DNA of 64,000 nt, taken from positions 19,898 to 83,897 of the forward strand of contig JAUIFJ010000012.1 of assembly GCA_030429345.1 (NCBI GenBank), written 5' to 3'. How positions within the stretch are numbered: position 1 is the first letter of the stretch; each line of letters begins with the position of its first letter. The notes beneath the pieces are model-generated. The model did no database searches. It was given only the letters and a program-made list of their open reading frames with translations, and was not told the origin of the DNA. Below, in pieces: positions 10,291 through 50,919 of the stretch. The stretch is from a bacterium. Its GTDB lineage: Bacteria; CAIWAD01. Both the position numbers and the translations under genes were made by a program.

Positions 10291-11985
10291 ATGAAACCTT
10301 TGCTGCTCGCGCTGCTACTCGCGCAGGCCGGACACCTCCATGCCGAACACGCCATCGGTTCGACCCCGGCGGATTTCAGTGGAACACCGACCCGTCCCCA
10401 GGAATTCGGAAACAACTGGTCGCTGTCGGACCACCAGGGAAAGGTGGTGCTGGTCAATTTCGGCGCCATCTGGTGACCGGGCTGCAATTCGGAGTTTCCG
10501 CATTTACAGAACGACTTTGAAAGCGCCTACCCGGAAGAATTCTTCGAGCTGGTCCACGTGGATGTGGACAATCGCCCGGCCTCCGGCCTGAACAACCACT
10601 GGGCCCATGACAATCCCACCTTTCCCGTGCTGACCGGCGCCGCGGGCATTTTCGGCGCCTGGGGCACGGGCTACATTCCCCATACGACCATCCTGGACCC
10701 CCAGGGCGTGGTTCGCGGCAACTGGGTCGGCTGGAGCAGTTCCGCCGGCAACGCCATGCACTCGGTGATCCAGGCCTGGCTGCCCGCACCCGCGGAGCCG
10801 GAAGTCGCGGCGCTGCATTTTTCCGGCGACGCCAACAATGATGCCCACCCGGATCCCGGCGAGCTCTTGCAGCTGGAACTCGTGCTGGCCAATCCGGCCG
10901 GCCTGCAAGGCGCCCAGAACCTGAGCTGCAACCTTGAAACCGCCGGCCCCTGGCTGACGGTGACCCAGGCCCAGACCTTCGCGGACCAGCTGCCCGGCGG
11001 CGGCCAGACAGCCTGCGCACCGCTGCTGGTACTGCAGGTCGATCCGGCGTCTCCGCGTCACACGGCCCAGCTGCAGTTCAGCTGGAGCGCGACCGGAGCG
11101 CAGGGCGAAGCCCTTTCCGGAAGCTTCAGCGCGCCGCTGGACGTCGCGCGGCACCCGCTGCTCGTCGTCGATCGTGATCCAGCCTACGACGAGGCCGGTC
11201 CCGTGATCGCCGCCCTGGACCAGCTCGGCCTTGCCTACGACCTGTGGACCGGCGGCTGCGCGGACCAGCCGAGTGATTCGCTCAAGTCCTGGAACACGGT
11301 GCTCTGGCTGGGCGGCCGACAGTTCCCCGCCCTGGACGAGGCCGACCTCTTCCAGGCTCGACTTCATGTCTCACAAGGTCGTCGGTTCTTCCTGTCCGCA
11401 CAGCATCTGCCGTCCGCGGCAGCCGACCTGGCGGAGATCTTCGCCATCCAGGAGGGCGCATTCGCCCCGGGACCGATCCTGAGCGGCGTGCCCGGATCGC
11501 CCTTCGAGAACGGCTTCTGCCAGCTCAACACACCCGGCGGCGCGCAGAACAGCATTCATCCCAACGAGCTGCTCCTGCTGGAAGGGGCCGAATCGCTCTT
11601 CGACTGGGCCCCCGGACCGGGAGCCGCGCTTGCCGGAAGACGAGACGCGACGGGACGGGCGCTCTGCGCGGCTTTTCCCCTGGAGGCTGTCGGCACGCAG
11701 ATCGAAGGCTGGGTCACCATTCCGGAGCTGCTTTCGGAATGCCTTGCCTGGCTGGACCAGCCTCAGGAACTGCCTGCGCCGCATCTTGAGATCCAGCGCC
11801 TTGCGGACGGGAGCCTGCGCCTGCAATGGAACAGCATCCCTGGCGCAGCGGGCTATCATGTCTGGACCGGGACGCATCCTTTCCAGGTCGGCTCCTTGCT
11901 CGACACGACGCCGGATACCACGTATACACTCCCCGCGCCTTCTGCCGGCATGGCGGGCTACCGCGTGGAGGCCAGCATCGACTAG
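10291..11985 (+). CDS. TlpA/ResA-like thiol:disulfide oxidoreductase, predicted selenoprotein (W-U-P-G-C; in-frame TGA at 10474-10476), fused to a large unknown domain and a C-terminal FN3-like module
   Basis: The ORFs 10231..10476 and 10558..11985 are in the same frame with no other stop between them. The TGA falls exactly at the first Cys of the thioredoxin motif (VVLVNFGAIW-[TGA]-PGCNSEFPHL). A signal peptide MKPLLLALLLAQAGHLHA and a GGAGA RBS are present. Confidence 0.7.
10486..10504 (+). promoter_or_regulatory. SECIS-like hairpin downstream of the UGA (AAUUCGG-AGUUU-CCGCAUU, loop at +17..+21)
   Basis: The stem-loop was folded by eye. It has the same geometry and loop sequence as the hairpins after the other two in-frame TGAs. 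Confidence 0.4.
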
Positions 11986-12191: not shown

Positions 12192-12905
12192 ATGAAAAGC
12201 CTGATTCCGGCCCTGCTGCTGGTTCCCCTGCTGGCAGCCCGGGCCGAGTACCCCGCGGGATCGACCCCGCCCGATTTCACTGGAACGACAACCCAACCAG
12301 GCCTCTACGGCCCGGAGTGGACCCTCTCCGATCAGGCCGGCAAGATCGTGCTGCTGCATTGGGGCGCCTGGTGGTGACCGCCCTGCAATGCGGAGTTTCC
12401 GCAGCTGCAGAACCAGATCCGCGAGTTCTATCCGGAGGACGTGCTGGCCATCGCTCATGTGGAGATCACGACCCAGAGCGCCTCTTTCCTCAATAACCAC
12501 TGGGGGCAGTACGATCCGACCTTTCCGCTGTTGACCGGCCTGGACAATCTCTGGCCGGCCTGGACCGTCAACGGGCTGCGTCCGCTGGTGACGATCCTGG
12601 ATCCGCAGGGCGTGGTCGTCGGCAACTGGACCTCCTACACGGAGAGCCACATTGACGACTTCCGCACTGCCATCGACTCGCTGCTTCCCCTGGAGGCACC
12701 GGTACTGTCCATCGAGCGCATGGCCAATGGCATGCTGCGGCTGCACTGGACGGAAGTGGAAGGAGCCGGCAGCTATCGTCTGCTGCAGGCAGCCACTCCC
12801 TGGCAGGAAGGCATCGAGCTGATCCAGACTCCCCTGTTCGAACATGTGCTTGCCGCGCCCGCGCCCGGCCGCGGCTGGTTCCAGGTGGAAGCCCTGGCCC
12901 CCTGA
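12192..12905 (+). CDS. TlpA/ResA-like thiol:disulfide oxidoreductase paralog, predicted selenoprotein (W-U-P-P-C; in-frame TGA at 12375-12377) with a C-terminal FN3-like module
   Basis: The ORFs 11826..12377 and 12441..12905 are in the same frame and are joined across HWGAWW-[TGA]-PPCNAEFPQL. The start at MKSLIPALLL has a signal peptide and a GAGG RBS. Sec is at residue 62, as in the upstream paralog. Confidence 0.7.
12383..12410 (+). promoter_or_regulatory. SECIS-like hairpin (CUGCA-A-UGCGG-AGUUU-CCGCA-GC-UGCAG, loop at +17..+21 after UGA)
   Basis: The stem-loop was folded by eye and has about 10 bp of stem. Confidence 0.45.
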
Positions 12906-14525: not shown

Positions 14526-14540
14526 GGGAATACGATCAAG

Positions 14541-14615
14541 GGTGGAAGAAGGGACTTGAACCCTCGACCTCCTGGGCCACAACCAGGCGCTCTAACCAGC
14601 TGAGCTACATCCACC
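14541..14615 (-). tRNA. tRNA-His (anticodon GTG, with an encoded G-1)
   Basis: A manual fold. The anticodon stem is CCTGG/CCAGG with loop TTGTGGC. The D-arm is GCTCAGCTGGTTAGAGC and the T-loop is TTCAAGT. Confidence 0.75.
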
Positions 14616-14629
14616 ATCTGTGAGAACAA

Positions 14630-14703
14630 CGCGCCCGGAAGGACTCGAACCTTCAACCTACGGCTTAGAAGGCCGTTGCTCTATCCGGTTGAGCTACGGG
14701 CGC
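14630..14703 (-). tRNA. tRNA-Arg (anticodon TCT)
   Basis: A manual fold. The acceptor stem GCGCCCG/CGGGCGC pairs perfectly. The anticodon stem is ACGGC/GCCGT with loop CTTCTAA. Confidence 0.8.
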
Positions 14704-14737
14704 CGCACAGGGACTCGGGTAGCTTTCGTGCCCGGAA

Positions 14738-14811
14738 TCGGGGCGATAGGATTTGAACCTACGACCTCCTGCTCCCAAAGCAGGCGCGCTACCGGGCTGC
14801 GCAACGCCCCG
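14738..14811 (-). tRNA. tRNA-Pro (anticodon TGG)
   Basis: A manual fold. The acceptor stem is CGGGGCG/CGCCCCG. The anticodon stem is CCTGC/GCAGG with loop TTTGGGA. The T-arm is GGTTCAAATCC. Confidence 0.8.
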
Positions 14812-36112: not shown

Positions 36113-36787
36113 TTATTCCTCGGCCCCGGCGGCGATCATGCTGCGGGCAGCCTGCAGCAGCAGTTCCGGCTGCAGGCGGACCCGGTAGTCCGGATTGGCG
36201 TAGACGAAATGAAGGACCCCCTCGCGATCCACCAGGAACACGGCCGGTACTGGCAACTGGTGATGATCACGCCCCGAATCGGCCTCCAGGTCGATGTCGA
36301 AGGACTCCTTGTACTTTCGAACCAGGCTCTCCTCCACCTGGAAGGCAATGCCCATGGCGCGCGCCGCACGCATGTCGCTGTCGGAACACAGCAGGTAGCC
36401 CACACCCTCCTCGACTGCTGTATCACGCTGTTTCCCGGGGCGATCCGGGCTGACGGCGATCACCTGGCAACCCAGGGCAAGCAGTTCGTCCTCGATCTCC
36501 TGCAGCTCTCCCAACTGGAGAGTGCAGTAGGGTCACCAGCCGCCGCGGAAGAAGACGAGCACGGTCGGCTTCTTCGCCCACAGGCTGTCCAGGAGTACCT
36601 CCGAGCCATCGGCGAGCCGCAGCTGCAGAGCAGGGATCTGCGTACCGACCAGGCGCGGGCAGATCTGCTCCGCCGAATCGGCGACGGGGTGCTGCCCAGT
36701 ACTCAGTGCCCTTGCCGCGAAGGGCATGAGCAGGAATCCCAGGGCGACAAGAAGTCGAATGGAACCCAGCGACACCTTCATCTTCAT
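36113..36787 (-). CDS. periplasmic peroxiredoxin-like (AhpC/TSA, PRX-like) protein, predicted selenoprotein (W-U-P-Y-C; in-frame TGA at 36533-36535)
   Basis: The ORFs 36533..36823 and 36113..36514 are in the same frame with no other stop. The TGA falls at the peroxidatic Cys position of FFRGGW-[TGA]-PYCTLQLGEL. The signal peptide MKMKVSLGSIRLLVALGFLLMPFAARA has an AAGGAA RBS. Confidence 0.7.
36502..36525 (-). promoter_or_regulatory. SECIS-like hairpin (GCA-CUCUCC-AGUUG-GGAGAG-C-UGC, loop at +17..+21 after UGA)
   Basis: The stem-loop was folded by eye on the mRNA strand. Confidence 0.45.
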
Positions 36788-39599: not shown

Positions 39600-39728
39600 G
39601 AGCGACTCCGGATTTGCTGCCCAAGAAGGCATTTCCGCATCAGGCTCTGCGTGCTTGACATGATTGACGGAAACCACCTTATATACAACCCCGGCAACCC
39701 CACGAAAACCGACTGGAAGACTCAGACC

Positions 39729-41813
39729 ATGAAGACATGGATTCCGCTGCTCTGCGCCCTGGCTGGCCTGCTGCAGGCCCAGGACAGCCATCTGACCCTG
39801 GCCGGCGCCTGGGAGAAGGGCGCCTGCCAGGCGGCCAGCGCCCGCAACGACAGCCTGCTCTATGCGGGCAACGGGCACTTCATCGAGCTGGTGGATGTGC
39901 GCGACTGGTCGGTGCTGCAGCGTTTCTCAACGCCCTCTTTCATCCAGAGCCTGCTCTTCGAGGATGGCCGGCTGCTGTTGTGGCAGGAGGACAGCCTGAT
40001 CACCTACGACGCCGCCTTGCCCGGAAGCCTGGATCGCCTTGCGGCATGGCCCGAGCCCTGTTCCAACAGTGGACTCGCCGACCTGGAGGGCAGCCTGTTC
40101 AGTGCGATCCACGAAGACACGCTGCGAGTGTGGGACATGTCGGATCCAGGCGCTCCCGACCTGCTCAGCACGACCCTGCTGCAGCAAGCCAGTACGCGGA
40201 TCCTTGGCCAGGACAGCCTGCTCTGCGTACTCCACGACAACAGCCTGGATCTGTGGAGCCTGGCGGATCCGGCTTCGCCCGCCCTGCTGGGGGAAGTGCC
40301 GGGGCTGGCCACCTATCCCGCCATTGCCCGGGACGGCGATCGTCTGCTGGTCGAGAGCGAGGACAGCCTGAAGATCTATGACCTGGCCGACCCGGAGAAT
40401 CCGCAGCTCGAAGGCGCTTTCGAGCTTCCTGGATTTGTGATACACAGCTGCCTGTCGGGAAACCGGGCCGCCGTGTCGACTCCCTACACGCAATACCTGT
40501 ACAGCCTGATCGATCCGACCGCTCCCGGCCTTGTGGACAGCCTGGACCAGCCGAGTGGCGGACTGCTGCATTTCGTCGGGAACCGCCTGTGTCTGGTCTA
40601 CCAGACGAAACAGCAGAGTTGGCGCACCAGCCTGCAGGACGGGCTGGTCGAGCCGGCGACACGCTGGATGGGAGGCAATGCCGCCGGGCTGCATCTGGCC
40701 GGTGACCGGGCATTCGCCGGCTTCAACCAGGCCGGCTTCGCGATTCTCAGCCTGATCGCGCCCGGCGAGCTGAGCGAGCTCTTCGAGCGCCAGGACCCGG
40801 AAACCGGCGTCCGCGCGCTCGACGGATGGAGCACGCGCCTCGTCACCATTGACGGCAATGCCCGGTTCCGACTCCTGGACGCAAGCGGGCCCGGAGTGCC
40901 CGTGGAGCTCGGCGCCATGGATCTGCCGGCAGTCCCCGAGCTCTTCGTGGACGGGATCAACGCCTGGTGCATGGATGACGACAGCCTGCGCATGATCCGG
41001 CTGCTCGGGCCCTTCGCGCCGAGCCAGGCCGTCGTACTGCCTCACGGCTTGAGTGGCAGTTTTCAATATCCGACCAGCCTCTTCGGCGATTCGGGCAGGC
41101 TGATCCTGACCAGCTCGGGCTTTCCGGACGAATTGCTGAGCCTCTACGATACGAGCGATCCCGCCAACCCGCAATTCCTCGGGGACTGGATCGTGCCCAA
41201 TGAGGTGGGCCACCTCTTCAGGGGCGACCTGGAAGGATCGATGGGCGTGCTGCTGGGCACTTCCGGCATCCTGCTCTTCGAGTGGGACGAAGGCGCGCCC
41301 CAGACCCGCGCGCTGATCGATGTGAGCGTCGGCGACCTGCCCGACTGCGCCCGCCTCGACGGGGAGCGGTTGTGGCTGGGCAGCTACAGCGGCCTGCGCC
41401 TCTACTCCATCGCCGATCCGGAAGAGCCGATCCTGGCCGGCTACTGGCCCACCCCCGGGTCCCTGGTCAACCTAGAGGTGCAGGCGGACCGCGTCGTCGG
41501 GCTCGGCCCGACGGGATTGTATCACTGGGGCCGCATCGACACGGATCTCGACCTGGCTATTGCGCCCGTGCTCTCTCCGCAGGCGACGATCGAACTGAGC
41601 TGGAATCCGCTCTCCTTCGCCAGCGGCTACGCCATCTACAGCCGGTCGCCGCTGGAGGGCGCCTGGATCGCCCGGGCGCTTGTGATACAGGACCACTGGA
41701 TGGAGACTCCCTTCGGCAGCGCGCCGGCGAAGCGCGAATACCGGGTGGTTCCTCTCGCTCAGGCCCCGAACGAAATGCAACACACGAACTCCCGAACCAG
41801 GAGTGCCCGATGA
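39729..41813 (+). CDS. secreted LVIVD-repeat beta-propeller protein with a C-terminal FN3-like module
   Basis: A signal peptide MKTWIPLLCALAGLLQA is present. Repeated L-x-[IV]-x-D-[LIV]-[SA]-DP-x-x-P motifs are visible (LRVWDMSDPGAP, LKIYDLADPENP...). Confidence 0.6.
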   Translation: MKTWIPLLCALAGLLQAQDSHLTLAGAWEKGACQAASARNDSLLYAGNGHFIELVDVRDWSVLQRFSTPSFIQSLLFEDGRLLLWQEDSLITYDAALPGSLDRLAAWPEPCSNSGLADLEGSLFSAIHEDTLRVWDMSDPGAPDLLSTTLLQQASTRILGQDSLLCVLHDNSLDLWSLADPASPALLGEVPGLATYPAIARDGDRLLVESEDSLKIYDLADPENPQLEGAFELPGFVIHSCLSGNRAAVSTPYTQYLYSLIDPTAPGLVDSLDQPSGGLLHFVGNRLCLVYQTKQQSWRTSLQDGLVEPATRWMGGNAAGLHLAGDRAFAGFNQAGFAILSLIAPGELSELFERQDPETGVRALDGWSTRLVTIDGNARFRLLDASGPGVPVELGAMDLPAVPELFVDGINAWCMDDDSLRMIRLLGPFAPSQAVVLPHGLSGSFQYPTSLFGDSGRLILTSSGFPDELLSLYDTSDPANPQFLGDWIVPNEVGHLFRGDLEGSMGVLLGTSGILLFEWDEGAPQTRALIDVSVGDLPDCARLDGERLWLGSYSGLRLYSIADPEEPILAGYWPTPGSLVNLEVQADRVVGLGPTGLYHWGRIDTDLDLAIAPVLSPQATIELSWNPLSFASGYAIYSRSPLEGAWIARALVIQDHWMETPFGSAPAKREYRVVPLAQAPNEMQHTNSRTRSAR

Positions 41814-43837
41814 TCACGAAATGGATGCTTCTGCTGCTGGCCTCGGCGGCCCTGGCACAGGACACGCAACTGACCGGCGCGGGCGCCTGGGAGCACGGGG
41901 ACTGCCACAGCTTCGAATTCCGCGACGACAGCCTGGCCTACATGGGCAACGGCCACATGATCGACCTGGTCAACACGGCCAGCGGCCTGGTCCTGGAACG
42001 CTTCCGCACTCCCGAAGAGGTGGGCGCCCTGCGCTACGAGGACGGCCTGCTGCTGAGCTGGGGCCACGACAGCCTGCGCTTCTGGGACGCCACCCTGCCG
42101 GGCACGCTGGACTGGCTCGCCTCCTGGGAGGATCCAACCTCGACCAGCGCGCACACGGCGCAGGAGGGACGTCTCTTCTGCATGAGTCGCGAGGATTCGC
42201 TCTATGTGCTCGACATTGCCGACCCGGCCCTGCCGGTTCCATTCTGGCGGGGCGAGCTGCAGGAAGGCAGCTACTGGATCGACCTGGAGGACAGCCTGCT
42301 CAGCGTGCAGCGCACGGACGCGGCCCTGGACCTGATCGACCTCTCCGACCCTTTCAATCCCGCGTTTCAGAGCACGATCACGGGACTGCACGAATACCTG
42401 CCGCAGCCGGCCCGTCGCGGCCAGTACCTGCTGGCGCTGATGGACAGCCTGCGGCTCTACTCGCTGGCCGACCCGGCCTCTCCCCTGCCCCTGAGCGCCC
42501 TGCCGCTTCCCGACTCGCTGGCCATCGATGGCCTGGACATGGGGGGCGGCAAGGCGGCCTGCACCGATTTCGACGGCTTCCTGGTCTTTGACCTGTCGAA
42601 TCCGCTGGATCCGCAGCTCAGCCATTTCCAGGAAGTCTACGCCGGTTTCGAGCTGCCGCGCCTGCGGGCGGACCGCCTGGTCGTCGCCGGGCGCAACAAG
42701 TGCCGGATGCTCGACCTGGATTCGGCCGGCCTGCCGCTGGACGAGCGGCTAGTATACACCGGCTCCAGCGCTCCGCAGGGTCTGCACACGGTCGGTTCGC
42801 ATGCCCTGCTGGGCCTCAACATCGCCGGCATGGTCACGGTCGACCTGAATGCCCCGGGCGGGCCCCAGGAAGTGGGCGACCGCGGCAGCTGGCCCGTCGT
42901 GCGCGCCCTGGACGGGCAGGGAAACTGGCTCGCCATCGCCAGCGACGGGGACGGCCTGCAGATCCTCGACGCCAGCGATCCGCTGAATCTGCAGACCGTC
43001 TGGACCGCTCCCTCCTCCCCCTTCGACGACTTCCGGGTCGACAATGGACTGCTCTTCGGCTGGAACACGGATTCGCTCTTCGTGCTCGATCCCTCGCCGC
43101 CGAACTCCCCCGTGCTGCGGGATGCCCTGCCCCACTCAGGCTACTACATCTCGGACATCGCTTTGGGCGACGGCGTACTCATTGCCAGCTACGTCTTCGA
43201 CGACGAGGTCGAGTTCTTCGACATCAGCGATCCGGAGGCGGTCACCTCGCTGGGCCCCTGGACGCCGGCAGGCCTGGATGGACCGCGCGGGGGCGACATA
43301 GATGGCGGGCACGGGGTTCTGGCAAGCTATGACAGCCTCCTGCTGTTCAGCCTGGCGAGCGGCCAGCCCGAGCTGCGCAGCGCCCTTCCTGCAGAGGAGT
43401 TCGTCTTCCTGGAGGCCGTCTGGGACGGCGAGCGCCTCTTCGCAGCCTCCAGCGCCGGCCTGCACGTATACGCCGTGCCACGGTTGACGACTCCCATCGA
43501 GCTCGCCTTCTTCCCGACGCCGGAAGGCCTGCGGCAGCTGCACGTGGAAGAGGACCGCGTCCTGGCCCTGGGCACCACGGGGCTCTTCAGCTGGAGCCGC
43601 GCGGACACGGACCTGGACCTGCGCATCACGCCGGTCCTCGACGGGGCGGACACCATCGAGCTGAGCTGGAACCTGCAGTCCTTCGCCGCCGGCTATGCCG
43701 TCTACAGCCGCCTGCCCTACACGGGCCCCTGGGTCGAAGTGGCCCAGGTGACACAGGACCGCTGGACGGAAGCGCCCTTCGGCCCGACGCCGACGCTGCG
43801 CGAATACCGCGTCCTGCCGCTCGGCGAGCTGGACTGA
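41810..43837 (+). CDS. secreted LVIVD-repeat beta-propeller protein, paralog
   Basis: An AGGAG RBS is present and the ATG overlaps the upstream stop (ATGA). The protein is colinear with the upstream paralog and has the same C-terminal module. Confidence 0.6.
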   Translation: MITKWMLLLLASAALAQDTQLTGAGAWEHGDCHSFEFRDDSLAYMGNGHMIDLVNTASGLVLERFRTPEEVGALRYEDGLLLSWGHDSLRFWDATLPGTLDWLASWEDPTSTSAHTAQEGRLFCMSREDSLYVLDIADPALPVPFWRGELQEGSYWIDLEDSLLSVQRTDAALDLIDLSDPFNPAFQSTITGLHEYLPQPARRGQYLLALMDSLRLYSLADPASPLPLSALPLPDSLAIDGLDMGGGKAACTDFDGFLVFDLSNPLDPQLSHFQEVYAGFELPRLRADRLVVAGRNKCRMLDLDSAGLPLDERLVYTGSSAPQGLHTVGSHALLGLNIAGMVTVDLNAPGGPQEVGDRGSWPVVRALDGQGNWLAIASDGDGLQILDASDPLNLQTVWTAPSSPFDDFRVDNGLLFGWNTDSLFVLDPSPPNSPVLRDALPHSGYYISDIALGDGVLIASYVFDDEVEFFDISDPEAVTSLGPWTPAGLDGPRGGDIDGGHGVLASYDSLLLFSLASGQPELRSALPAEEFVFLEAVWDGERLFAASSAGLHVYAVPRLTTPIELAFFPTPEGLRQLHVEEDRVLALGTTGLFSWSRADTDLDLRITPVLDGADTIELSWNLQSFAAGYAVYSRLPYTGPWVEVAQVTQDRWTEAPFGPTPTLREYRVLPLGELD

Positions 43838-43932: not shown

Positions 43933-46290
43933 TCAGGGCGCCGTGCGGCAGGGACGGAAGCCGATCCCGGAAAATGCGCCGCTCGATCCCGGCAGGTTGT
44001 GATTGCGCTTGGCGCAGTTCACGTACAAAGCGCTGCTGTTAAAGCCACCACCACGATGCACACGGTGTGAGCCGGCCATCGCCCCGTGTGGATTGATTTC
44101 CGGCCCTGCAGGATAATCGTCATAGCGATCCCCGGTCCACTCGGAAACATTCCCCGCCATGTCGAACATGCCCAGGGAGTTCGCCCCGGCGGCATAGCTT
44201 CCACCCGGAGTCTTCCAGCCGACGAAATTGCCGGCATTGACCAGCGTCGCACTCGGGTAGGTGCTGCCCCAGGGGTAGGGCCTGCCGTCGGCCAGGCGCG
44301 CGGCGTACTCCCATTCGGCCTCCGTCGGCAGTCGATAGCCTTCGGCCGTGTAGGGATCGTGTCCGGCTTCCTGGTCCCAGTTGCCGTTGTAGTACGGAGC
44401 AAGCCCCTCCATGAGGCTTCGCAGGTCGCAGTAGACGGCGGCGCCGTACCAGGTGACCCTGGATGTCGGCAGGAACCAGGGATCGTAGCCCTCCGGATAG
44501 GCCGCCGAAGCTCCCGGGTGCGTCGAAGGGGTCACGCTGAAAAGGCCGTCCGCGAAAAGGATTTCCGAATCGTCGTAGTTCAGCCGGCAGAGACACTCTT
44601 CCCAGGCCCAGGCGCAACTGCCATACACCTCCACCATTCCATTGTCGACGCCCCACTGAAGTACCTCGAGGAACTCGGCATGTGTCACTTCCCGCGTGCC
44701 AAGCAGGAAGTCCTGCTGCAACGTCACTTCATGTTCGGGGGTTTCGATGCCGTCCAGTCCCATGGTGAAGGTGCCGGCCGGCACCAGGGTCATCTCGCCA
44801 GGCCAGGTCGGCGCTGTCGTGGTCGAGAAGCGCCAGACGGGGCCTGCCGTCTCGTAGCCTTCCGGATCGCGGGACACGATCTGCCAGTAGTAGATCGTGC
44901 TGTCGGCCAACGCGCCGGGATCGATGCTGAAGGCCGCCAGATCCACGGCGAGCGGGGCCCCGTCCATCGGCGAAGGATCCGTGCCGAAGTAGACATCGAA
45001 GACCAGCGGATCCTCATCCGTATCCGTGCCGCTCCAGGAAAGCAGGGAAACCTCTGCCACGCCGTACTCGTGCATGGCGGGAGAAGGGGCAGCAGGTGCG
45101 TCCGGCGCGTGATTGGCCGATATCCCATTGGTACGGCAGACGCGGAAGCCGATATAGCGGTTCGTCGTCACATGGCCCTGGCCAGACTTGCGCACCAGGC
45201 GCAGGGACCAGGCGCTGGCGGAAAAGCTGCCGCCTCGTGTCACGCCAACGCCGATCGACTGCGGTCCCAGGGGATCCACCAGGTCCCCGCTTTGAAGACC
45301 ATTGATATCTCCCGTCCACTCGGCCATGCTGCCGGCCATGTCCAGCAGACCGAGCGAACTCGCGCCTTCGGGGAGGCTGCCCACGGGAAGGGTCCAGCCA
45401 ACGCAGCCCGCGCTGTTGTTGTAGTTGACACGATCGCAGCTGACGGCTTCATCCCCCCAGGGATACTGCCGCATGTCGTCGAAGCGGGCGGCTCGTTCCC
45501 ATTCGGCGTCCGTGGGCAGACGGTAGCCGGGATGCTCATAGGGCGAATGCTCAGGAGTCTGGTTCCACTCCCCTTCATAGTAGGGGGGAATGCCGCTGCG
45601 AATGCTAAGCCAGTCGCAATAGCAGGCAGCGCCGAAGAAGCTGACTTCGCGCACCGGGTGATTGCCCGGATCGTAGCCAAGCGGATAGGCCTGGAAGGAG
45701 CTGGAATAGGAAGTCGGTGCCAACCGGAACTGCCCATCCTCGAAGAAGATCTCGCCCGTGTCCTCCAGGTCCAGGAGCAACATGCCGTAGGCATGAACTC
45801 CTCCGTCTTCTACTGTCACACGCCCCGTGTCATAGGCCCACTGCAGCTGTTCCATGTACTGGCGATTGGTGACCTCGAAGGTGCCCAGGAAATAGTCCTT
45901 CGACAAGGTGACCTGCTGCTCCGGGTAGCCCGCCAGATCATCGCCCTTGGTGAAAGTGCCCGCCGGCACCAGGGTCATGTCCGGCTCGTGAGGCAGGCCA
46001 ACGCTGTCGGCGACCACGCGGAAGAAACGGCGCTGAATGATTTCCCCGTAGCCGTCGCGCTCCGGGATCCAATGGCTGGTCTTTGCCGTCGTGAACAGCA
46101 GGCTCTCCTGCTGGAACAGTGTATCTCGAAGGACGACGGAATAGCGGTTGGCGCCGGCAACGGCGTCCCATTCCAGGGTGAAGCCATCTACACCATGCAG
46201 GGGCAAGGTCTGAATCGTCAATTGGGGTGTTTCAATTGCCTGGGCAATCGACACACAAAAGGATACAGCGATCAGGATCGAGGGGCGCAT
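43933..46290 (-). CDS. secreted double FGE-sulfatase (SUMF1)-fold domain protein
   Basis: The ORF was trimmed to the signal peptide MRPSILIAVSFCVSIAQA, which has a GGAGA RBS. Two FGE-like domains are present (MTLVPAGTFTxG ... YRLPTxAEWExAAR ... GNVSEWT). Confidence 0.75.
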   Translation of the reverse strand: MRPSILIAVSFCVSIAQAIETPQLTIQTLPLHGVDGFTLEWDAVAGANRYSVVLRDTLFQQESLLFTTAKTSHWIPERDGYGEIIQRRFFRVVADSVGLPHEPDMTLVPAGTFTKGDDLAGYPEQQVTLSKDYFLGTFEVTNRQYMEQLQWAYDTGRVTVEDGGVHAYGMLLLDLEDTGEIFFEDGQFRLAPTSYSSSFQAYPLGYDPGNHPVREVSFFGAACYCDWLSIRSGIPPYYEGEWNQTPEHSPYEHPGYRLPTDAEWERAARFDDMRQYPWGDEAVSCDRVNYNNSAGCVGWTLPVGSLPEGASSLGLLDMAGSMAEWTGDINGLQSGDLVDPLGPQSIGVGVTRGGSFSASAWSLRLVRKSGQGHVTTNRYIGFRVCRTNGISANHAPDAPAAPSPAMHEYGVAEVSLLSWSGTDTDEDPLVFDVYFGTDPSPMDGAPLAVDLAAFSIDPGALADSTIYYWQIVSRDPEGYETAGPVWRFSTTTAPTWPGEMTLVPAGTFTMGLDGIETPEHEVTLQQDFLLGTREVTHAEFLEVLQWGVDNGMVEVYGSCAWAWEECLCRLNYDDSEILFADGLFSVTPSTHPGASAAYPEGYDPWFLPTSRVTWYGAAVYCDLRSLMEGLAPYYNGNWDQEAGHDPYTAEGYRLPTEAEWEYAARLADGRPYPWGSTYPSATLVNAGNFVGWKTPGGSYAAGANSLGMFDMAGNVSEWTGDRYDDYPAGPEINPHGAMAGSHRVHRGGGFNSSALYVNCAKRNHNLPGSSGAFSGIGFRPCRTAP

Positions 46291-46348
46291 ATGGGTCTCC
46301 GGTGAATTCTTTCGTCCGAGATTTCTCTGTTTGCGTATGCATGCAGCC

Positions 46349-48700
46349 TCAAGGCGCGGTCCGGCAGAGACGGAAGCCTGTAATGGAAGTTGCATGATTC
46401 CATGTAGGCAATGCGCGCAGCCGCTTCGCCGTATGCAAGAGGTCTGCGGATCCCGCGAAGCCGCCTCCGCGCAGGACCCGCCGCGTGCCGCTGCCAGGAC
46501 CATAGGGATTGGAAACCGCAGCGGCTGAGTAGTCTCCGTGGCGATCGCCGGTCCATTCGGACACGTTTCCCGCCAGGTCCTGGATCCCCAATCCGCTGCT
46601 GCCTGCAGGATAGGATCCGGGCAAGACCGTCCAGCCGACGAAGTTCCCGGCATTGACGAGGGTCGCGTTGGGATAGGTCGCTCCCCAGGGATAGTCGCGC
46701 CCGTCACTGTAGCGAGCGGCATACTCCCATTCGGCCTCCGTGGGCAGGCGATAGCCCGCGGCCGTGTAGGGGTCGTGGGCAGCATTCTGATCCCAGTTCC
46801 CGTTGTAGTACGGAGGCAGTCCCTCCATCATGCTGCGAAAGTCGCAATAGGCGGCGGCTCCATACCAGGTGATGTGTGCGGCAGGAAGAAACCAGGGATC
46901 ATAGCCCAGCGGGTATGCGGCGTTGGCGGCTTCGTCGGGGGCGACACTGAAGTGTCCGTCCGCGAAGGTGATCTGGCTCCACTCCGTACCGAGCCGGCAC
47001 AGGTCCTGTCCCCAGGCCATGGCCGCGTCGTCCACCAGCTCCACATGGCCGTTGTCAAGCCCCCACTGCAAAGCGGTGAGAAACTCGGCGTGTGTTACTT
47101 CCTGCCTGCCGAGCAGGTAGTCCTGCTGCAAGGTCACAGTGTGCTCCGGCGTGGCAACCCCATTCTTTCCCATCATAAAGGTTCCCGCCGGCACCAGGGT
47201 CATTTCGCCCAGCCAGGATGGTGGCGTCGAGGTCGAAAAGCGCCACACCGGCCCAGGGGTCTCCAGCCCCTCCGGATCACGGGCGAGCACACGCCAGTAG
47301 TAGGCCGTACTGTCCGCCAGCATGCCCGGCGAATAGCTGGTTGCAGCCAGATCCGTGATGATCGGCGCCGCATCCAGTTGCGCCGGATCCGTATTCAGGT
47401 AGACATCGAAGACCAGCGGATCCTCGTCCAGGTCCGCGCAACTCCATGCCAGAGCGGCACCGTTGGCAACGCCATACTCCTGCCGCATGGGAGAGGGATC
47501 TGCCGGTTTCTCCGGGGCGTGATTCGTCGACACTCCATCCGTACGACAAATGCGGAAGCCGTGGTGCCTGGCGGCGACGCTTGGCCCGATCGTTCCCTTG
47601 CGCATCATGCGCAGATTCCAGACGGACTCCTCGAAACTGCCGCCCCGGCTGGTCATCGGACCAGAAACCTGTGACCCAAGGGGATCCACGGCGTTCGCGC
47701 TCTCGATGCTGTAGCGATCGCCCGTGAATTCTCGGATGTTCCCGGCCATATCGAGTACACCCAGTTCGCTTGCTCCAGCAGGCAAGCTGCCGACGGGCAA
47801 GGTCCAGCCCTCGCAGTTGCTGCCATCATGGTTGGCCAGGCTGCAGGTGGGGGCAGCCTCGCCCCATGGATAGTTCCGCAAGTCATTGGACCGGGCGCTG
47901 TATTCCCATTCCGCGTCCGTAGGCAATCGGTAGCCGGCACTCTCGTAGGGATTGTGATCCGGGCGCTGGCTCCAGTCGCCATTGTAGTACGGCGGCAAGC
48001 CGTTGCGCATGCTGAGCCAATCGCAGTAACAGGCAGCGCCGAAGAAGGTCACATCCTTCACTGGATGCTCGCCCGGGTCATAGCCATCCGGATAAGCGCT
48101 TGCCCCCAGGGCACTGGTTGTCGGCTCCAGGTAGAAGAGCCCGTCGTTGAAGCGGATCTCGCCGTCTTCTTCCAGATCCAGCAGGTTCAGGTCGTAGGCC
48201 TTGACCTGAGTGTTCTCGACGCTGACCAGCCCGTTGTCATAGGCCCACTGCAGCTGTTCCATGTACTGCCGGTTGCTGACTTCCAGGGTGCCCAGGTGGA
48301 AGGCCTTGCTCAGGGTGACCGTGTGTTCCGGATAGCCGGCCACATCGTCCCCCATGGTGAAGGTCCCCGCAGGCACCAGGGTCATGGCCGGTTCGTGTGG
48401 CAAGGCCACGCTGTCGGCGACCACGCGGAAGAAGCGGCGTGAGACAAGTACTCCTGTGCCGTCGCGCTCCGGAAGCCAGTGGGCAGTCTTTGCCGTCGTG
48501 AACAGCAGGCTCTCCTGCTGGAACAGTGTATCACGTAGCAGTACGGAATAGCGGTTGGCGCCGGCGACGGCGTCCCATTCCAGGGAAAATCCGGACTGGC
48601 CCTGAAAGGTGGATCTGTGGATCGACACCTGGGGTTCATCCAGGGCCTGCACGGTGGACAGGCCGACGAAAAGGAAACTGATCAGTAGGTGCGATTTCAT
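46349..48700 (-). CDS. secreted double FGE-sulfatase (SUMF1)-fold domain protein, paralog
   Basis: A signal peptide MKSHLLISFLFVGLSTVQA and an AGGAGA RBS are present. The protein is roughly 60-70% identical to the upstream paralog over its full length. Confidence 0.75.
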   Translation of the reverse strand: MKSHLLISFLFVGLSTVQALDEPQVSIHRSTFQGQSGFSLEWDAVAGANRYSVLLRDTLFQQESLLFTTAKTAHWLPERDGTGVLVSRRFFRVVADSVALPHEPAMTLVPAGTFTMGDDVAGYPEHTVTLSKAFHLGTLEVSNRQYMEQLQWAYDNGLVSVENTQVKAYDLNLLDLEEDGEIRFNDGLFYLEPTTSALGASAYPDGYDPGEHPVKDVTFFGAACYCDWLSMRNGLPPYYNGDWSQRPDHNPYESAGYRLPTDAEWEYSARSNDLRNYPWGEAAPTCSLANHDGSNCEGWTLPVGSLPAGASELGVLDMAGNIREFTGDRYSIESANAVDPLGSQVSGPMTSRGGSFEESVWNLRMMRKGTIGPSVAARHHGFRICRTDGVSTNHAPEKPADPSPMRQEYGVANGAALAWSCADLDEDPLVFDVYLNTDPAQLDAAPIITDLAATSYSPGMLADSTAYYWRVLARDPEGLETPGPVWRFSTSTPPSWLGEMTLVPAGTFMMGKNGVATPEHTVTLQQDYLLGRQEVTHAEFLTALQWGLDNGHVELVDDAAMAWGQDLCRLGTEWSQITFADGHFSVAPDEAANAAYPLGYDPWFLPAAHITWYGAAAYCDFRSMMEGLPPYYNGNWDQNAAHDPYTAAGYRLPTEAEWEYAARYSDGRDYPWGATYPNATLVNAGNFVGWTVLPGSYPAGSSGLGIQDLAGNVSEWTGDRHGDYSAAAVSNPYGPGSGTRRVLRGGGFAGSADLLHTAKRLRALPTWNHATSITGFRLCRTAP

Positions 48701-48947
48701 GAGGTTCTCCTGCGCTGTGTCCCTTTTTGCAAAGGTTGCTGTGTTCTTGAGGATGAGGAAGAGCAGACAGAACCGCAAGGACTGATCCGGACAACCGAAA
48801 ACAGCGTCGCGATCGATCGCCGGCTCACCCGGCTACGCCTTCACTGGATTTCCGGTATTGGTCGAAGGCGATGCGTGGTCGATTTTCCCTGTAGGCGAAT
48901 TGACATGCCTCATGGCGAATCCGGATCCCTTTCGTCTGCTTGACCGG

Positions 48948-49910
48948 ATGAAACTCTTTCCCTTGATGCTCTTGAGCCTCTGCTTCCTCCACCTGGCGGG
49001 CTGCGAGGACGATTCTCCTGCACCTCCAGACCTCGGCGAATGGGTCTTCGTTCCCGCCGGAAGCTTCCGCATGGGGGAAACGGGAACTGCCCGCGCCGAG
49101 CCGGAGCATGAGGTCACCCTGACCCGGCACTACTATCTGAGTCGCTACGAGACCACCAACCTGCAATTCGCCTCCATGCTTCAGTGGGCCTGGGAGAACG
49201 GACGCGTGCTCGCCGACAGCTCGGAAGTGCGCTATCCCTACGGGCAGCATCTGATCCAGCTGATGGACCTCTCGAATCCGGCCTGCGAGATCGCTTTCGA
49301 CAGTACGGGTTTCCGGGTACGGGCGTCACGGGATCCAAGGGCACTGGCTGCCTATCCCCAGGGCTACGAGGCGGAGCTGCATCCGGTCAAGCTGCTCTCC
49401 TGGCGGGCCGCGGCGCTCTACTGCGACTGGCGCAGCATCCGCAACGGCCTGGCCCCGTACTACAATGATGAATGGGAACAGGGCGCTGGCCATGATCCCT
49501 ACCTGGCGGAGGGCTTCCGCCTGCCGACGGAAGCCGAATGGGAACACGCCGCGCGCTACCCGGACTCCCGGGTCTTTCCCTGGGGCAACCAGCCCCTGAC
49601 GCCGCAGCGCGCGGCGTTCCGGCAGTCCTGGTCCAGTCCCGTCGGTTCGAGGCCTTCCGGGGAAAGCGCGCTGGGCCTGGCCGACATGGCGGGCAATGTC
49701 TGGGAATGGACCGACGACGGCTACGGCGAGTATCCCTCTGCCGCAGAGCGCCAGAACCCCCTGGGCCGCTCCGGCGGCTGGCCGCACACCATACGGGGCG
49801 GCTACTGGGACAACGGCGAATCCCTGTTGCGCACGACGGCGCGCACGAGCTTCGGAGTCGACTACCCGCATGCGGGCATCGGCTTCCGCGTCTGCCGGCT
49901 GCTTCCCTGA
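48948..49910 (+). CDS. FGE-sulfatase-fold lipoprotein (single domain)
   Basis: A lipoprotein signal MKLFPLMLLSLCFLHLAGC is present, together with the FGE blocks FRLPTEAEWEHAAR and GNVWEWT. The start is uncertain. An alternative TTG/ATG lies upstream. Confidence 0.65.
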   Translation: MKLFPLMLLSLCFLHLAGCEDDSPAPPDLGEWVFVPAGSFRMGETGTARAEPEHEVTLTRHYYLSRYETTNLQFASMLQWAWENGRVLADSSEVRYPYGQHLIQLMDLSNPACEIAFDSTGFRVRASRDPRALAAYPQGYEAELHPVKLLSWRAAALYCDWRSIRNGLAPYYNDEWEQGAGHDPYLAEGFRLPTEAEWEHAARYPDSRVFPWGNQPLTPQRAAFRQSWSSPVGSRPSGESALGLADMAGNVWEWTDDGYGEYPSAAERQNPLGRSGGWPHTIRGGYWDNGESLLRTTARTSFGVDYPHAGIGFRVCRLLP

Positions 49911-49947
49911 AGGCAAGAGCGCGTTTCGAAGAAGAGGAGTTCCCGGC

Positions 49948-50919
49948 ATGAAACACAAGGCACGCAGGGTTCTACAGTGGTTCCCTTTCCTGAGTGTCGC
50001 ACTGCTTCTCGCGTGTGATGGAATCCACGACGCGCCCGCCCCCCTGGCCGGGGACCTGGAGATGATCCCGGTGCCGGAGGGCAGCTTCGTGATGGGCAGG
50101 GAGGCATGGCCCGAGGCGGAACCGGAGCATGGGGTCACCCTGAGCCGTTCCTTCGAGCTGAGCCGATTCGAGATCACCAATGCCCAGTACATCGACATGC
50201 TGAACTGGGCCTGGGAGCAGGGCCGGCTGGCGGTCCATGCGGGCAGTGTCTACCTTCTGCCGGGCTACGCGCATCCGCTGTACCTGCTGAATGCCGACGG
50301 CAGCGAGATCTTCTTCATTGGATCACGCTTCCTGCCGCGTCGTCACGACCTGGTTGTCCTGCCGGAGGACTATGACCCGGACCCGCACCCCGTCAAGTGC
50401 GTGACCTGGTACGGCGCGGCCTTCTACTGCGACTATTTGAGCCTGCTGGAAGGGCTGCAGCCCGTCTACAGTCCCAGGCGGTTCCTGCTGGATGACCTCT
50501 CCCCCTACGAGCAAGAAGGCTACCGCCTGCCGACGGAAGCCGAATGGGAACGGGCCGCCCGCTTCGACGACGGCCGGCTCTACCCCTGGGGAAACCAGGG
50601 GGCTTCCCAAGAACGGGTCGTATACGGCAACGCCTGGTCCGAAGCCGTCGGCTCCAGGCCGCTGGGCCGCAGCCGGCTGGGGCTCGAGGATCTATCCGGC
50701 AATGTCTGGGAATGGGTGCACGATCGCTACGGCATGTATACGGCGGAGTCCCGCACGGACCCCTTCGACAACGGCGGGGAGGACCGTCGGGCCATGCGCG
50801 GCGGCTATTGGGCAACGCCGCCTCTTCTGCTGAGCACGGTCACGCGGAGCTTCGGGGACCCGGACAAGGGACACAAGGCGAACGGCTTCCGGGTCTGTCG
50901 TACAGCGCCGGAGCAGTAG
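49948..50919 (+). CDS. FGE-sulfatase-fold lipoprotein (single domain), paralog
   Basis: A lipoprotein signal MKHKARRVLQWFPFLSVALLLAC is present, together with the blocks YRLPTEAEWERAAR and GNVWEWV. Confidence 0.7.
   Translation: MKHKARRVLQWFPFLSVALLLACDGIHDAPAPLAGDLEMIPVPEGSFVMGREAWPEAEPEHGVTLSRSFELSRFEITNAQYIDMLNWAWEQGRLAVHAGSVYLLPGYAHPLYLLNADGSEIFFIGSRFLPRRHDLVVLPEDYDPDPHPVKCVTWYGAAFYCDYLSLLEGLQPVYSPRRFLLDDLSPYEQEGYRLPTEAEWERAARFDDGRLYPWGNQGASQERVVYGNAWSEAVGSRPLGRSRLGLEDLSGNVWEWVHDRYGMYTAESRTDPFDNGGEDRRAMRGGYWATPPLLLSTVTRSFGDPDKGHKANGFRVCRTAPEQ

What the first reader, a model, noticed from the sequence alone, without database searches (positions are those of the whole stretch)
39729..43837. 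LVIVD-repeat paralog pair sharing a C-terminal FN3-like module with both TlpA-like selenoproteins
The two overlapping (ATGA) genes encode colinear secreted proteins full of L-x-[IVL]-x-D-[LIVM]-[SA]-D-P-x-x-P repeats (LVIVD-type beta-propeller). Their last about 70 residues are ...IELSWNxxSFAxGYA[IV]YSR.P..G.W......V.QD.W.E.PFG..P..REYRV.PL. This tail is recognisably the same module that ends both selenoproteins (...LRLQWNSIPGAAGYHVWTG...GYRVEASID and ...LRLHWTEVEGAGSYRLLQA...WFQVEAL). A common extreme-C-terminal domain on four otherwise unrelated exported proteins, which is distinct from the T9SS CTD used by six other proteins in the window, could be a lineage-specific sorting or anchoring module.
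Basis: inference. Interest (0 to 1): 0.55.

Follow-up and report, generated by a model that had tools for sequence, protein, structure and literature searches.

The report
Truncated FN3 tail on secreted proteins
Two neighbouring secreted beta-propeller proteins end in a small fibronectin-type domain that lacks its last strand, and the same tail closes dozens of unrelated secreted proteins in two little-known bacterial phyla, so it looks like an undescribed address or anchor tag rather than an ordinary domain.

Summary
Genes A (39729-41813) and B (41810-43837) overlap by ATGA. They are 39% identical, Sec-exported LVIVD-type propeller proteins. Their last ~73 residues are homologous to the tails of both TlpA-like selenoproteins. 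Pairwise similarity is weak, but family profiles give hhalign 94%, E 9e-8.

Outside the window I found 37 distinct strictly terminal copies on 23 contigs, from Delongbacteria, Cloacimonadota and unnamed metagenome bins. They sit on peptidases, beta-helix, FG-GAP, BNR and other passengers.

They share contigs with T9SS type A tails but never share a protein with one. Homologous passengers carry either tail. No Pfam or NCBIfam model covers the module.

Best reading (about 0.5): a dedicated terminal targeting or docking module. Main rival (about 0.35): an ordinary accessory FN3 domain. Nothing is shown experimentally.

The parts
39729..41813 (+). Gene A: Sec-exported LVIVD-type beta-propeller protein, 694 aa, with a C-terminal truncated FN3 module and a 16-aa extension
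   Evidence: ORF and translation; 39% identical to B; Pfam Beta_propel weak hit; distant homologues carry PF08309/PF09826
39729..39782 (+). Signal peptide of A (MKTWIPLLCALAGLLQAQ)
   Evidence: Read directly from the translation. The database gene call starts 23 codons further upstream.
41544..41762 (+). Tail module of A (aa 606-678), followed by the extension APNEMQHTNSRTRSAR, which overlaps the start region of B
   Evidence: scores 85 bits with the family HMM
41810..43837 (+). Gene B: paralogue of A, 675 aa; its ATG overlaps A's stop codon (ATGA)
   Evidence: Pfam LVIVD 19.6 bits
43610..43834 (+). Tail module of B (aa 601-675). The protein ends 7 residues after the YRV of strand F.
11770..11982 (+). 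Same module as the last 71 aa of TlpA-like selenoprotein 1 (gene 10291..11985, in-frame TGA at 10474-10476)
12690..12902 (+). Same module as the last 71 aa of TlpA-like selenoprotein 2 (gene 12192..12905, in-frame TGA at 12375-12377)
46003..46236 (-). Same module at the N-terminus (aa 19-96, directly after the signal peptide) of the double-FGE-sulfatase protein FGE1 (gene 46290..43933)
   Evidence: Regex and HMM hits. The Sel1+Sel2 HMM finds it at E 8e-5. The Pfam FGE-sulfatase match starts at aa 102.
48410..48643 (-). Same module at the N-terminus (aa 20-97) of FGE2 (gene 48700..46349)

Best explanation
A and B are a co-transcribed, translationally coupled pair of Sec-exported LVIVD-type beta-propeller proteins. 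Each ends in a ~70-residue FN3-type beta-sandwich that lacks the seventh (G) strand.

This truncated module is a distinct family. Members of Delongbacteria and Cloacimonadota-like bacteria place it at a free end of many unrelated secreted proteins. That end is nearly always the extreme C-terminus. The consensus is ..P.NV.I...G..V.LSWDAV.GATSYKVYSSDDPY...........SW.......KKFYRV.A.N-COOH.

I think it most likely works as a terminal address or docking tag. After Sec export, the module would direct or tether its passenger at the cell envelope. The unpaired edge of strand F would be the probable contact, by beta-strand addition from a partner. In that role it would be an alternative to the T9SS type A C-terminal domain used by neighbouring genes.

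Shown here:
- homology of the tails;
- FN3 fold;
- absence of a G strand;
- terminal bias;
- coexistence with T9SS tails on the same contigs but never on the same protein;
- alternation of the two tails on homologous passengers.

Inferred:
- any targeting or anchoring function;
- the strand-addition contact;
- the identity of a partner.

Within this reading I put surface docking or anchoring at about 0.3 and a true secretion signal at about 0.2.
For: 1. Homology. hhalign of A/B-type tails against Sel/FGE modules gives 94.4%, E 8.8e-8.

3. Truncation. The model has strands B, C, C', E and F only. The alignment to 3mpc stops at residue 75 of 96-103. The proteins end 0-12 residues after strand F.

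4. Positional bias. There are 221 distinct modules whose F strand aligns. Their positions split three ways:
- 37 end within 12 residues of strand F, so there is no room for a G strand;
- 36 lie 13-35 residues from the end; most of these are canonical terminal FN3 domains that keep the FG loop and G strand;
- 145 are internal; those inspected are canonical.

5. Score ranking. In the unbiased motif scan of species genomes, the four best-scoring hits are all terminal truncated copies.

6. Diverse passengers. These include M1 and S8 peptidases, beta-helix/NosD, FG-GAP, BNR, PETase-like, GEVED/DUF7901 and Chlam_PMP proteins, LVIVD propellers and TlpA-like selenoproteins. Up to four carriers sit on one 15-18 kb locus.

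7. Relation to T9SS type A tails. They occur on the same contigs: six in the window, plus L132, L134, L155 and L157. Among the confirmed carriers and T9SS-tailed proteins examined, none carries both. In contrast, canonical FN3 domains do co-occur with T9SS tails within one protein.

8. Alternative tails on homologous passengers. L145 and L157:176-3115 are 32% identical over 363 aa. The S8 peptidases of L132 and L055 match L109. Relatives of A/B mostly end in PF18962 or PF13860.

9. One protein holds both kinds. The L132 S8 peptidase has three canonical internal FN3-like domains and the truncated one last.

10. No curated model covers the module. Pfam fn3 reaches only 13.8-14.1 bits against a cut-off of 25 on some copies. 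NCBIfam finds nothing meaningful.
Against: - There is no experimental datum of any kind.
- The module is a genuine FN3 relative, and FN3 domains commonly serve as spacers or binding modules.
- Three to four independent copies are N-terminal: FGE1/FGE2 in this window, a Fib_succ_major protein in L131, and possibly L081. A C-terminal translocation signal would not work there, although a docking module could.
- No conserved partner gene recurs next to carriers; no family appears in more than 2 of 25 loci.
- A itself carries a 16-residue extension after the module, and about five other family members have 17-25 residue extensions.
- The five A/B-type proteins are colinear relatives, so their shared terminal position is inherited rather than independent.
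- The sample of carriers was gathered by motif-based and HMM-based scans, not by whole-genome census.
- The first ~20 residues of the structural model (the strand A region) have low confidence.
- Absence of a G strand rests on chain length and one model, not on a solved structure.
Confidence: 0.5

Rival explanations
1. Ordinary accessory FN3 domain. The tail is a lineage-popular spacer, stabilising or ligand-binding module with no role in sorting. Its terminal position reflects how domains are shuffled onto the ends of secreted proteins, and common descent within families.
For: - Significant FN3 homology and fold.
- N-terminal copies exist.
- No conserved partner gene lies nearby.
- Secreted bacterial enzymes often end in accessory beta-sandwich domains (established knowledge).
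- The A/B-type tails are inherited together with the propeller.
Against: - It does not explain why this subfamily always lacks strand G. Canonical FN3 domains at protein ends keep it: 19-20 residues follow strand F in the Myxococcota and human-gut examples.
- It does not explain why the module was not seen inside a protein or in tandem among 221 modules.
- It does not explain why the module is never followed by a T9SS tail although canonical FN3 domains are.
- It does not explain why homologous passengers swap it for a T9SS tail.
Confidence: 0.35
2. New class of T9SS C-terminal secretion signal. The truncated FN3 tail is recognised by the type IX machinery, as type A and type B domains are, and drives outer-membrane translocation.
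For: - It lies at the extreme C-terminus of dozens of Sec-exported proteins.
- It occurs in genomes that clearly use T9SS type A tails, often in adjacent genes.
- It is mutually exclusive with, and interchangeable for, type A tails on homologous passengers.
- T9SS genes are reported for FCB phyla including Cloacimonadota (PMC11285876, introduction).
Against: - There is no sequence match to PF18962, PF13585/TIGR04131 or any NCBIfam sorting model.
- N-terminal copies cannot act as C-terminal signals.
- Some copies carry 16-25 residue extensions.
- No porP/sprF-like neighbour recurs, unlike many type B cargo genes (the type B pairing is from my own knowledge).
Confidence: 0.2
3. Chance resemblance. 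The A/B tails and the selenoprotein tails only share the common L-x-W...GA..Y-x-V motif and are not the same domain.
For: Pairwise BLAST E values are 0.002-0.1. Cross-detection with two-sequence HMMs fails. hhalign with only A+B gives 23.7% probability.
Against: - With three outside relatives added, hhalign gives 94.4%, E 8.8e-8, over the whole module.
- The outside-only HMM ranks both Sel tails at the top among 809 ORFs.
- Both groups hit the same solved FN3 (3mpc) in register.
- Both groups end at the same point after strand F.
Confidence: 0.02

Closest known systems
Fibronectin type III domains of bacterial secreted enzymes, e.g. the Fn3-like protein of Clostridium thermocellum (PDB 3mpc) and the Fn3 module of CtXyl5A (PDB 5g56)
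   Same: - Same fold, and the same signature residues: Trp in strand B, Tyr in strand C, Tyr/Phe-x-Val in strand F.
- Profile E 3e-6 to 3mpc.
   Different: - The module here stops right after strand F; about 20 residues, the FG loop and strand G, are missing.
- It is single-copy and sits at a chain end. The known examples are complete seven-strand domains, often internal or in tandem.
- The Pfam fn3 model does not reach its threshold.
T9SS type A C-terminal domain (PF18962 / TIGR04183, Por_Secre_tail)
   Same: - About 70-85 residue beta-sandwich at the extreme C-terminus of many unrelated Sec-exported proteins.
- Present in the same genomes and on the same contigs.
- Interchangeable with it on homologous passengers.
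   Different: - No sequence similarity, and different conserved motifs. The T9SS tails in the window start with PNPFNP and end with K/R-x-hydrophobic residues; this module has LSW..V.GA.SY and KKFYRV.A.
- This module occasionally occurs at the N-terminus.
- Dependence on T9SS is untested.
Terminal docking modules such as dockerins or SLH domains
   Same: Small modules placed at a free end of many different secreted passengers, usually C-terminal and sometimes N-terminal. They tether the passenger to a cell-surface partner. The distribution pattern is from my own knowledge; the placement seen here is.
   Different: The fold is unrelated. No partner (the cohesin equivalent) has been identified, and binding has not been shown.
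Incomplete Ig-like folds completed by a donor strand (chaperone-usher pilins, Bacteroidota type V pili)
   Same: A beta-sandwich that lacks its last strand, leaving an edge that another chain could fill (analogy from my own knowledge; the missing strand is shown).
   Different: There is no evidence of polymerisation or of a donor strand here. The passengers are enzymes and propellers, not pilins.
LVIVD-repeat cell-surface proteins (PF08309; Adindla et al. 2004, PMC2447325)
   Same: The bodies of A and B belong to this superfamily. The full HMMER search finds 25,598 relatives at E<=0.001, and the distant homologues carry PF08309/PF09826.
   Different: A and B belong to a small colinear subfamily of five known members. 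These end in the truncated FN3 tail instead of the PF18962 or PF13860 tails of most relatives.

Membership tests
Fibronectin type III (FN3) fold | Significant sequence-profile similarity to solved FN3 domains | tested here: met
   The A/B-type tail profile hits 3mpc_A at E 3.1e-6, 5g56_A FN3 at 2.2e-4 and FN3con at 5.7e-4. The six-module window profile hits 3mpc at E 6.9e-4.
Fibronectin type III (FN3) fold | Beta-sandwich that superposes on FN3 structures | tested here: met
Fibronectin type III (FN3) fold | Complete seven-strand topology (A, B, C, C', E, F, G) | tested here: not met
   The model has strands B, C, C', E and F, with strand A at low confidence. The chain ends 0-12 residues after strand F in 37 distinct family members, whereas canonical terminal FN3 domains keep 19-20 further residues.
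Fibronectin type III (FN3) fold | Pfam PF00041 match at the gathering score | tested here: not met
   No hit on the six window modules even at E<=10. Some relatives reach 13.8-14.1 bits against a cut-off of 25.
T9SS type A C-terminal domain (PF18962 / TIGR04183) | Match to the family model | tested here: not met
   No PF18962 hit in A, B, Sel1 or Sel2 or in ten further carriers, and no NCBIfam hit. The same scans detect PF18962 in six other window proteins, four at or above the cut-off.
T9SS type A C-terminal domain (PF18962 / TIGR04183) | Located at the extreme C-terminus of Sec-exported cargo | tested here: met
   37 strictly terminal copies; signal peptides read directly. Exceptions: N-terminal copies in FGE1, FGE2 and L131.
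T9SS type A C-terminal domain (PF18962 / TIGR04183) | Secretion depends on the T9SS, and the tail is removed by PorU | not testable with these tools
   Needs genetics or proteomics in uncultured lineages.
T9SS type B C-terminal domain (TIGR04131 / PF13585) | Match to the family model | tested here: not met
   No hit in Pfam or NCBIfam scans of full proteins and isolated tails.
T9SS type B C-terminal domain (TIGR04131 / PF13585) | Cargo gene frequently next to a porP/sprF-like gene | tested here: inconclusive
   All-against-all comparison of non-carrier ORFs from 25 carrier loci found no neighbour family in more than 2 loci. The loci are short, and the feature is recalled from my own knowledge.
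Transmembrane-helix sorting signals (PEP-CTERM, LPXTG, GlyGly-CTERM and similar) | Signature motif, then a C-terminal hydrophobic helix and a basic tail | tested here: not met
   The proteins end ...REYRVLPLGELD...GYRVEASID...WFQVEALAP...KKFYYVKAVQ, with no hydrophobic helix. There is no NCBIfam hit.
LVIVD repeat beta-propeller (PF08309) | Match to PF08309 at the gathering score | tested here: inconclusive
   B scores 19.6 bits against a cut-off of 20.2. A has no LVIVD hit but a weak PF09826 Beta_propel hit.
LVIVD repeat beta-propeller (PF08309) | Tandem ~42-residue repeats with the hydrophobic-D-x-S-D-P motif, and homology to annotated members | tested here: met
   A has 6 and B has 7 relaxed motif copies outside the signal peptide, about 41-43 residues apart in the N-terminal half. 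The strict motif occurs 3 and 5 times against 0.13-0.16 in shuffles. All 31 distant homologues carry PF08309. The full search finds 25,598 relatives.

The most novel reading that the evidence does not exclude
The truncated FN3 tail is a previously undescribed class of C-terminal sorting or anchoring domain of FCB-group bacteria (Delongbacteria, Cloacimonadota and relatives). It would work in parallel with the T9SS type A tail. It could be a new cargo signal for the type IX system. Alternatively, it could be a docking tag whose missing seventh strand is supplied by an envelope partner, which would be donor-strand-style anchoring of enzymes on the cell surface.
Probability: 0.4. Interest if true: 0.8.

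Novelty: new variant of a known kind. Interest (0 to 1): 0.62.

Why it matters
Protein sorting in the uncultured FCB phyla is inferred almost entirely from the Bacteroidota type A and type B tails.

If this module is a second, structurally different terminal tag, three things follow:
- The predicted secretomes and surface proteomes of Cloacimonadota and Delongbacteria are currently mis-sorted. Cloacimonadota are common in anaerobic digesters and anoxic sediments.
- It would give a simple sequence handle for listing their exported enzymes. That handle is an HMM plus the rule 'ends within 12 residues of strand F'.
- It would point to an unknown receptor or machinery component, which could be found by phylogenetic profiling.

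The missing strand also gives a concrete structural hypothesis that co-folding and binding assays can test.

If the module turns out to be an ordinary domain, the result is still a clean definition of a new FN3 subfamily that current libraries do not cover.

Tried and rejected
1. Two-sequence tests of the A/B-to-Sel relationship (BLAST, small HMMs, hhalign A2 against A3) were inconclusive. The question was resolved only after outside relatives were found.

2. Word-index protein searches with the short tail alignments found nothing and did not even recover A and B. The search with full-length A missed B.

3. Scans of genome contigs and metagenome contigs with the A+B alignment found no relatives. 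The five-sequence full-length alignment was too divergent for pattern search.

4. The first AlphaFold run, with two sequences, gave pLDDT 50 and was discarded.

5. The afdb50 fold library was unavailable.

6. PDB sequence search with full-length B found nothing.

7. The search for a conserved neighbouring partner gene was negative. The one family recurring next to small carriers in L129/L130 has only a weak Lcl_C hit.

8. The promoter and terminator scan around A/B found nothing useful.

9. Literature searches for a prior description returned nothing relevant. The terms combined Delongbacteria, Cloacimonadota or Cloacimonas with T9SS, C-terminal domain or fibronectin.

10. Considered and rejected:
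- A divergent T9SS type A or type B tail: no model match, and different motifs.
- A PEP-CTERM or LPXTG-type signal: no hydrophobic helix.
- An outer-membrane beta-signal: no terminal aromatic residue.

Full report
**What is at the coordinates**

- Gene A runs 39729..41813 and gene B runs 41810..43837, both on the plus strand. B's ATG overlaps A's TGA as ATGA.
- A has 694 aa and B has 675 aa. They are colinear from end to end: 39% identity over 667 aa, E 5e-109.
- Both begin with a typical Sec signal peptide, read directly: MKTWIPLLCALAGLLQAQ and MITKWMLLLLASAALAQ. The public gene call for A starts 23 codons upstream of that Met.
- The pair is transcribed divergently from a GH31 gene that ends in a T9SS tail. 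It is convergent with an FGE-sulfatase gene.

**The propeller body**

- The hydrophobic-D-x-[SA]-D-P-x-x-P motif recurs about every 41-43 residues in the N-terminal half. The strict form occurs 3 times in A and 5 times in B. Shuffles give 0.13-0.16.
- Pfam LVIVD scores 19.6 bits in B, just under the 20.2 cut-off. A gives a weak Beta_propel hit.
- All 31 distant homologues from the word-index search (21-30% identity) carry PF08309. Eighteen of them end in PF18962 (Por_Secre_tail) or PF13860 (FlgD_ig).
- A full HMMER search of 1.84 billion representatives with the A+B profile finds 25,598 relatives at E<=0.001.
- LVIVD repeats were defined in archaeal and bacterial cell-surface proteins (PMC2447325).

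**The tail inside the window**

A simple pattern finds six copies in the 64 kb:
- the C-termini of A, B and the two TlpA-like selenoproteins;
- the N-termini, directly after the signal peptide, of two adjacent double-FGE-sulfatase proteins.

The selenoproteins are Sel1 (10291..11985, TGA at 10474-10476) and Sel2 (12192..12905, TGA at 12375-12377). With U read as C, both match AhpC-TSA/Redoxin. The FGE copies lie at 46003-46236 (FGE1) and 48410-48643 (FGE2), minus strand.

Similarity is uneven:
- A and B tails are about 60% identical.
- Sel1 and Sel2 tails are 38% identical (E 6e-17).
- Sel tails against FGE modules are 29-38% identical (E 1e-7 to 1e-3).
- A/B tails against Sel tails reach only about 20 bits.

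Small HMMs confirm the pattern. Sel1+Sel2 finds the FGE modules (E 4e-6 and 8e-5) but not A or B. A+B does not find the Sel tails.

**Outside relatives settle the homology**

The full HMMER search returned three proteins colinear with A/B along the whole length, tail included. P0037 and P0042 come from one MAG labelled Delongbacteria_CAIWAD01, at two separate loci. P0100 comes from GCA_964345075.1.

With these added:
- The five-sequence tail alignment matches the Sel/FGE alignment by hhalign at 94.4% probability, E 8.8e-8, over 64 columns.
- An HMM built from the three outside tails alone ranks the Sel1 and Sel2 tails as its best non-self hits among 809 window ORFs.

The four tails and the two N-terminal modules are one domain family.

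**The fold**

- The tail profile hits solved FN3 domains by sequence: 3mpc_A at E 3.1e-6, the Fn3 module of 5g56_A at 2.2e-4, and FN3con at 5.7e-4.
- An AlphaFold model of B's tail made with two sequences was useless (pLDDT 50). With five sequences it reached pLDDT 79, above 90 for residues 21-60.
- Foldseek against the PDB returns only FN3 domains at the top, TMq 0.57-0.67.
- Pfam's fn3 model does not reach threshold on any copy. No Pfam or NCBIfam model covers the module.

**The unexpected feature: no seventh strand**

- The model contains strands B, C, C', E and F. Strand A has low confidence.
- The alignment to 3mpc ends at residue 75 of a 96-103 residue domain.
- B ends seven residues after the YRV of strand F.
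- Sel1 ends ...GYRVEASID and Sel2 ends ...WFQVEALAP.
- In FGE1 only eight residues separate strand F from the start of the FGE-sulfatase match.

There is no room for the FG loop and G strand that canonical FN3 domains have.

**More carriers appear in the flanks of the relatives**

I scanned the roughly 55 kb of flanking DNA of the three outside relatives with the module HMMs. Four further proteins end in the module:
- an M1 peptidase (L005);
- a BNR-like protein (L007);
- a beta-helix/NosD protein (L007);
- a PETase-like hydrolase (L007).

All have signal-peptide-like N-termini and end 0-5 residues after the aligned module.

**Wider sampling**

- A motif scan of one genome per species (LxWxxxxGAxxYR[VL]E) gave 119 loci from many phyla.
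- Scored with the 13-sequence family HMM, the four best hits are all terminal truncated copies. Three are in MAGs labelled Cloacimonadota, on proteins of about 1400 aa. One is in a high-GC MAG labelled Acetofilamentum sp., on an S8 peptidase.
- A further 3.2-kb contig of the CAIWAD01 genome carries two more copies.
- Every hit scoring below the family-like copies was a canonical FN3 with the FG loop and G strand present.
- A metagenome scan seeded with four of these tails returned 79 loci.

**Position statistics**

Pooling everything gives 221 distinct modules whose F strand aligns. They fall into three groups.

| Residues after strand F | Count | What they are |
|---|---|---|
| 0-12 | 37 | Truncated terminal copies, on 23 loci of 33-73% GC |
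| 13-35 | 36 | Mostly canonical terminal FN3 that keep the G strand (19-20 residues; Myxococcota and human-gut families), plus A and about five relatives with non-FN3 extensions |
| More than 35 | 145 | Internal; those inspected are canonical, apart from the N-terminal copies below |

- Three further modules lie at open contig ends and could not be classed.
- Truncated copies that are not C-terminal are FGE1, FGE2, a Fib_succ_major protein in L131 and possibly L081. All of these are N-terminal.
- I saw no truncated copy in the middle of a protein or in a tandem array.
- The 37-sequence consensus is ..L..P.NV.I...G..V.LSWDAV.GATSYKVYSSDDPY..FTE.GT...TSWS......KKFYRV.A.N-COOH.

**Relation to the T9SS tail**

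- Carriers span S8 and M1 peptidases, beta-helix/NosD, GEVED/DUF7901, FG-GAP, Chlam_PMP, BNR and PETase-like proteins, LVIVD propellers and TlpA-like selenoproteins.
- None of ten carriers scanned has any Pfam hit on the tail or a PF18962 domain.
- Up to four carriers sit on one 15-18 kb locus (L007, L130, L131).
- An HMM built from the window's six T9SS tails finds such tails on the same contigs as carriers: L132, L134, L155 and three on L157. Among the confirmed carriers and T9SS-tailed proteins examined, none carries both. Canonical FN3 domains, by contrast, do precede T9SS tails within one protein, for example in L082, L070 and L109.
- Homologous passengers carry either tail. L145 and L157:176-3115 are 32% identical over 363 aa. 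The S8 peptidases of L132 and L055 match L109. A/B match the PF18962-tailed LVIVD proteins.
- One S8 peptidase (L132) has three canonical internal FN3-like domains and the truncated one as its last domain.

**Interpretation**

These are the same kinds of sequence evidence from which sorting domains have been proposed before:
- one short domain on many unrelated exported proteins;
- a fixed terminal position;
- several carriers per genome region;
- exchange with a known sorting tail on homologous passengers.

My best-supported reading is a dedicated terminal targeting or docking module (confidence about 0.5). The N-terminal copies argue against a pure C-terminal translocation signal. They fit a docking module that only needs a free end, as with dockerins or SLH domains (analogy from my own knowledge). 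The unpaired edge of strand F suggests contact by strand addition from a partner; this step is inferred, not shown. The narrower idea of a new T9SS cargo signal stays open at about 0.2.

The main rival, at about 0.35, is an ordinary accessory FN3 domain. In its favour:
- the FN3 ancestry is real;
- no partner gene recurs next to carriers;
- some copies carry extensions;
- the A/B-type tails are inherited along with the propeller;
- my sample comes from motif-seeded and HMM-seeded scans, not from a whole-genome census.

Chance resemblance is essentially excluded.

**Prior knowledge**

- Full-text searches combining Delongbacteria, Cloacimonadota or Cloacimonas with T9SS, C-terminal domain or fibronectin found no description of such a tail.
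- A 2024 structural paper on T9SS C-terminal domains mentions Cloacimonadota only as a phylum that may possess a T9SS (PMC11285876).
- Absence from this library, from Pfam (2025) and from NCBIfam (June 2026) is not proof of novelty. Generic FN3 or Ig-fold annotation by other resources is likely.

**Verdict**

- The module is a new, truncated, end-restricted variant of the FN3 domain, with the distribution of a sorting or anchoring tag.
- Function is inferred only.

Noticed in passing
window 36787..36113 (-), in-frame TGA at 36533-36535: A third UGA-interrupted thioredoxin-fold gene. It is a signal-peptide-bearing AhpC/TSA (peroxiredoxin-like) protein with the motif GGW-U-PYC. With U read as C it scores 83.5 bits to PF00578. 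It has no FN3 tail. Public gene calls split it into 84-aa and 133-aa pieces.
   Followed up: partly
window 10474-10476 and 12375-12377: The in-frame TGA codons of the two TlpA-like selenoproteins sit in W-U-PGC and W-U-PPC redox motifs. Both proteins match AhpC-TSA/Redoxin when U is read as C. SECIS elements were not examined.
   Followed up: partly
window 43933-50919: A cluster of four FGE-sulfatase-domain genes. FGE1 and FGE2 each have two FGE domains, an internal FN3-like segment and the truncated module at the N-terminus. Their best NCBIfam similarity is to the T9SS ring lipoprotein GldK/PorK, but far below the cut-off (150 bits against 350), and they have Sec rather than lipoprotein signal peptides.
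   Followed up: partly
window 14454-14811 (-): Four tandem tRNA genes. These are the only Rfam matches at gathering score in the window.
   Followed up: no
L020, L024, L041, L043, L044, L057, L063, L086, L087 (Myxococcota genomes): A separate family of proteins ends in a complete FN3 domain with the G strand present and the conserved ending GKWFWRVxAVDxDGFxGxxSKxYxFxV. It shows that canonical FN3 domains at protein ends keep strand G.
   Followed up: no
L129 2764-4961 and L130 10341-12340: A repeated gene pair: an unknown ~510-575-aa protein (weak Lcl_C hit in one copy) followed by a ~155-aa tail carrier with SENY-type short repeats. It is the only recurring neighbour pattern seen near carriers.
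   Followed up: partly
L132 6749-10207: An S8 peptidase has three canonical internal FN3-like domains with G strands, and the truncated module as its last domain. Both kinds therefore occur in one protein.
   Followed up: yes
L119 (contig CAIWAD010000017.1, 3.2 kb): Two convergent genes both carry the module. One is an S8 peptidase that ends 2 residues after it. In the other, the module is followed by a 20-residue non-FN3 extension.
   Followed up: partly
window 39660-39728: The public gene call for A (717 aa) starts 23 codons upstream of the Met that begins the signal peptide. The 39729 start is more plausible.
   Followed up: no
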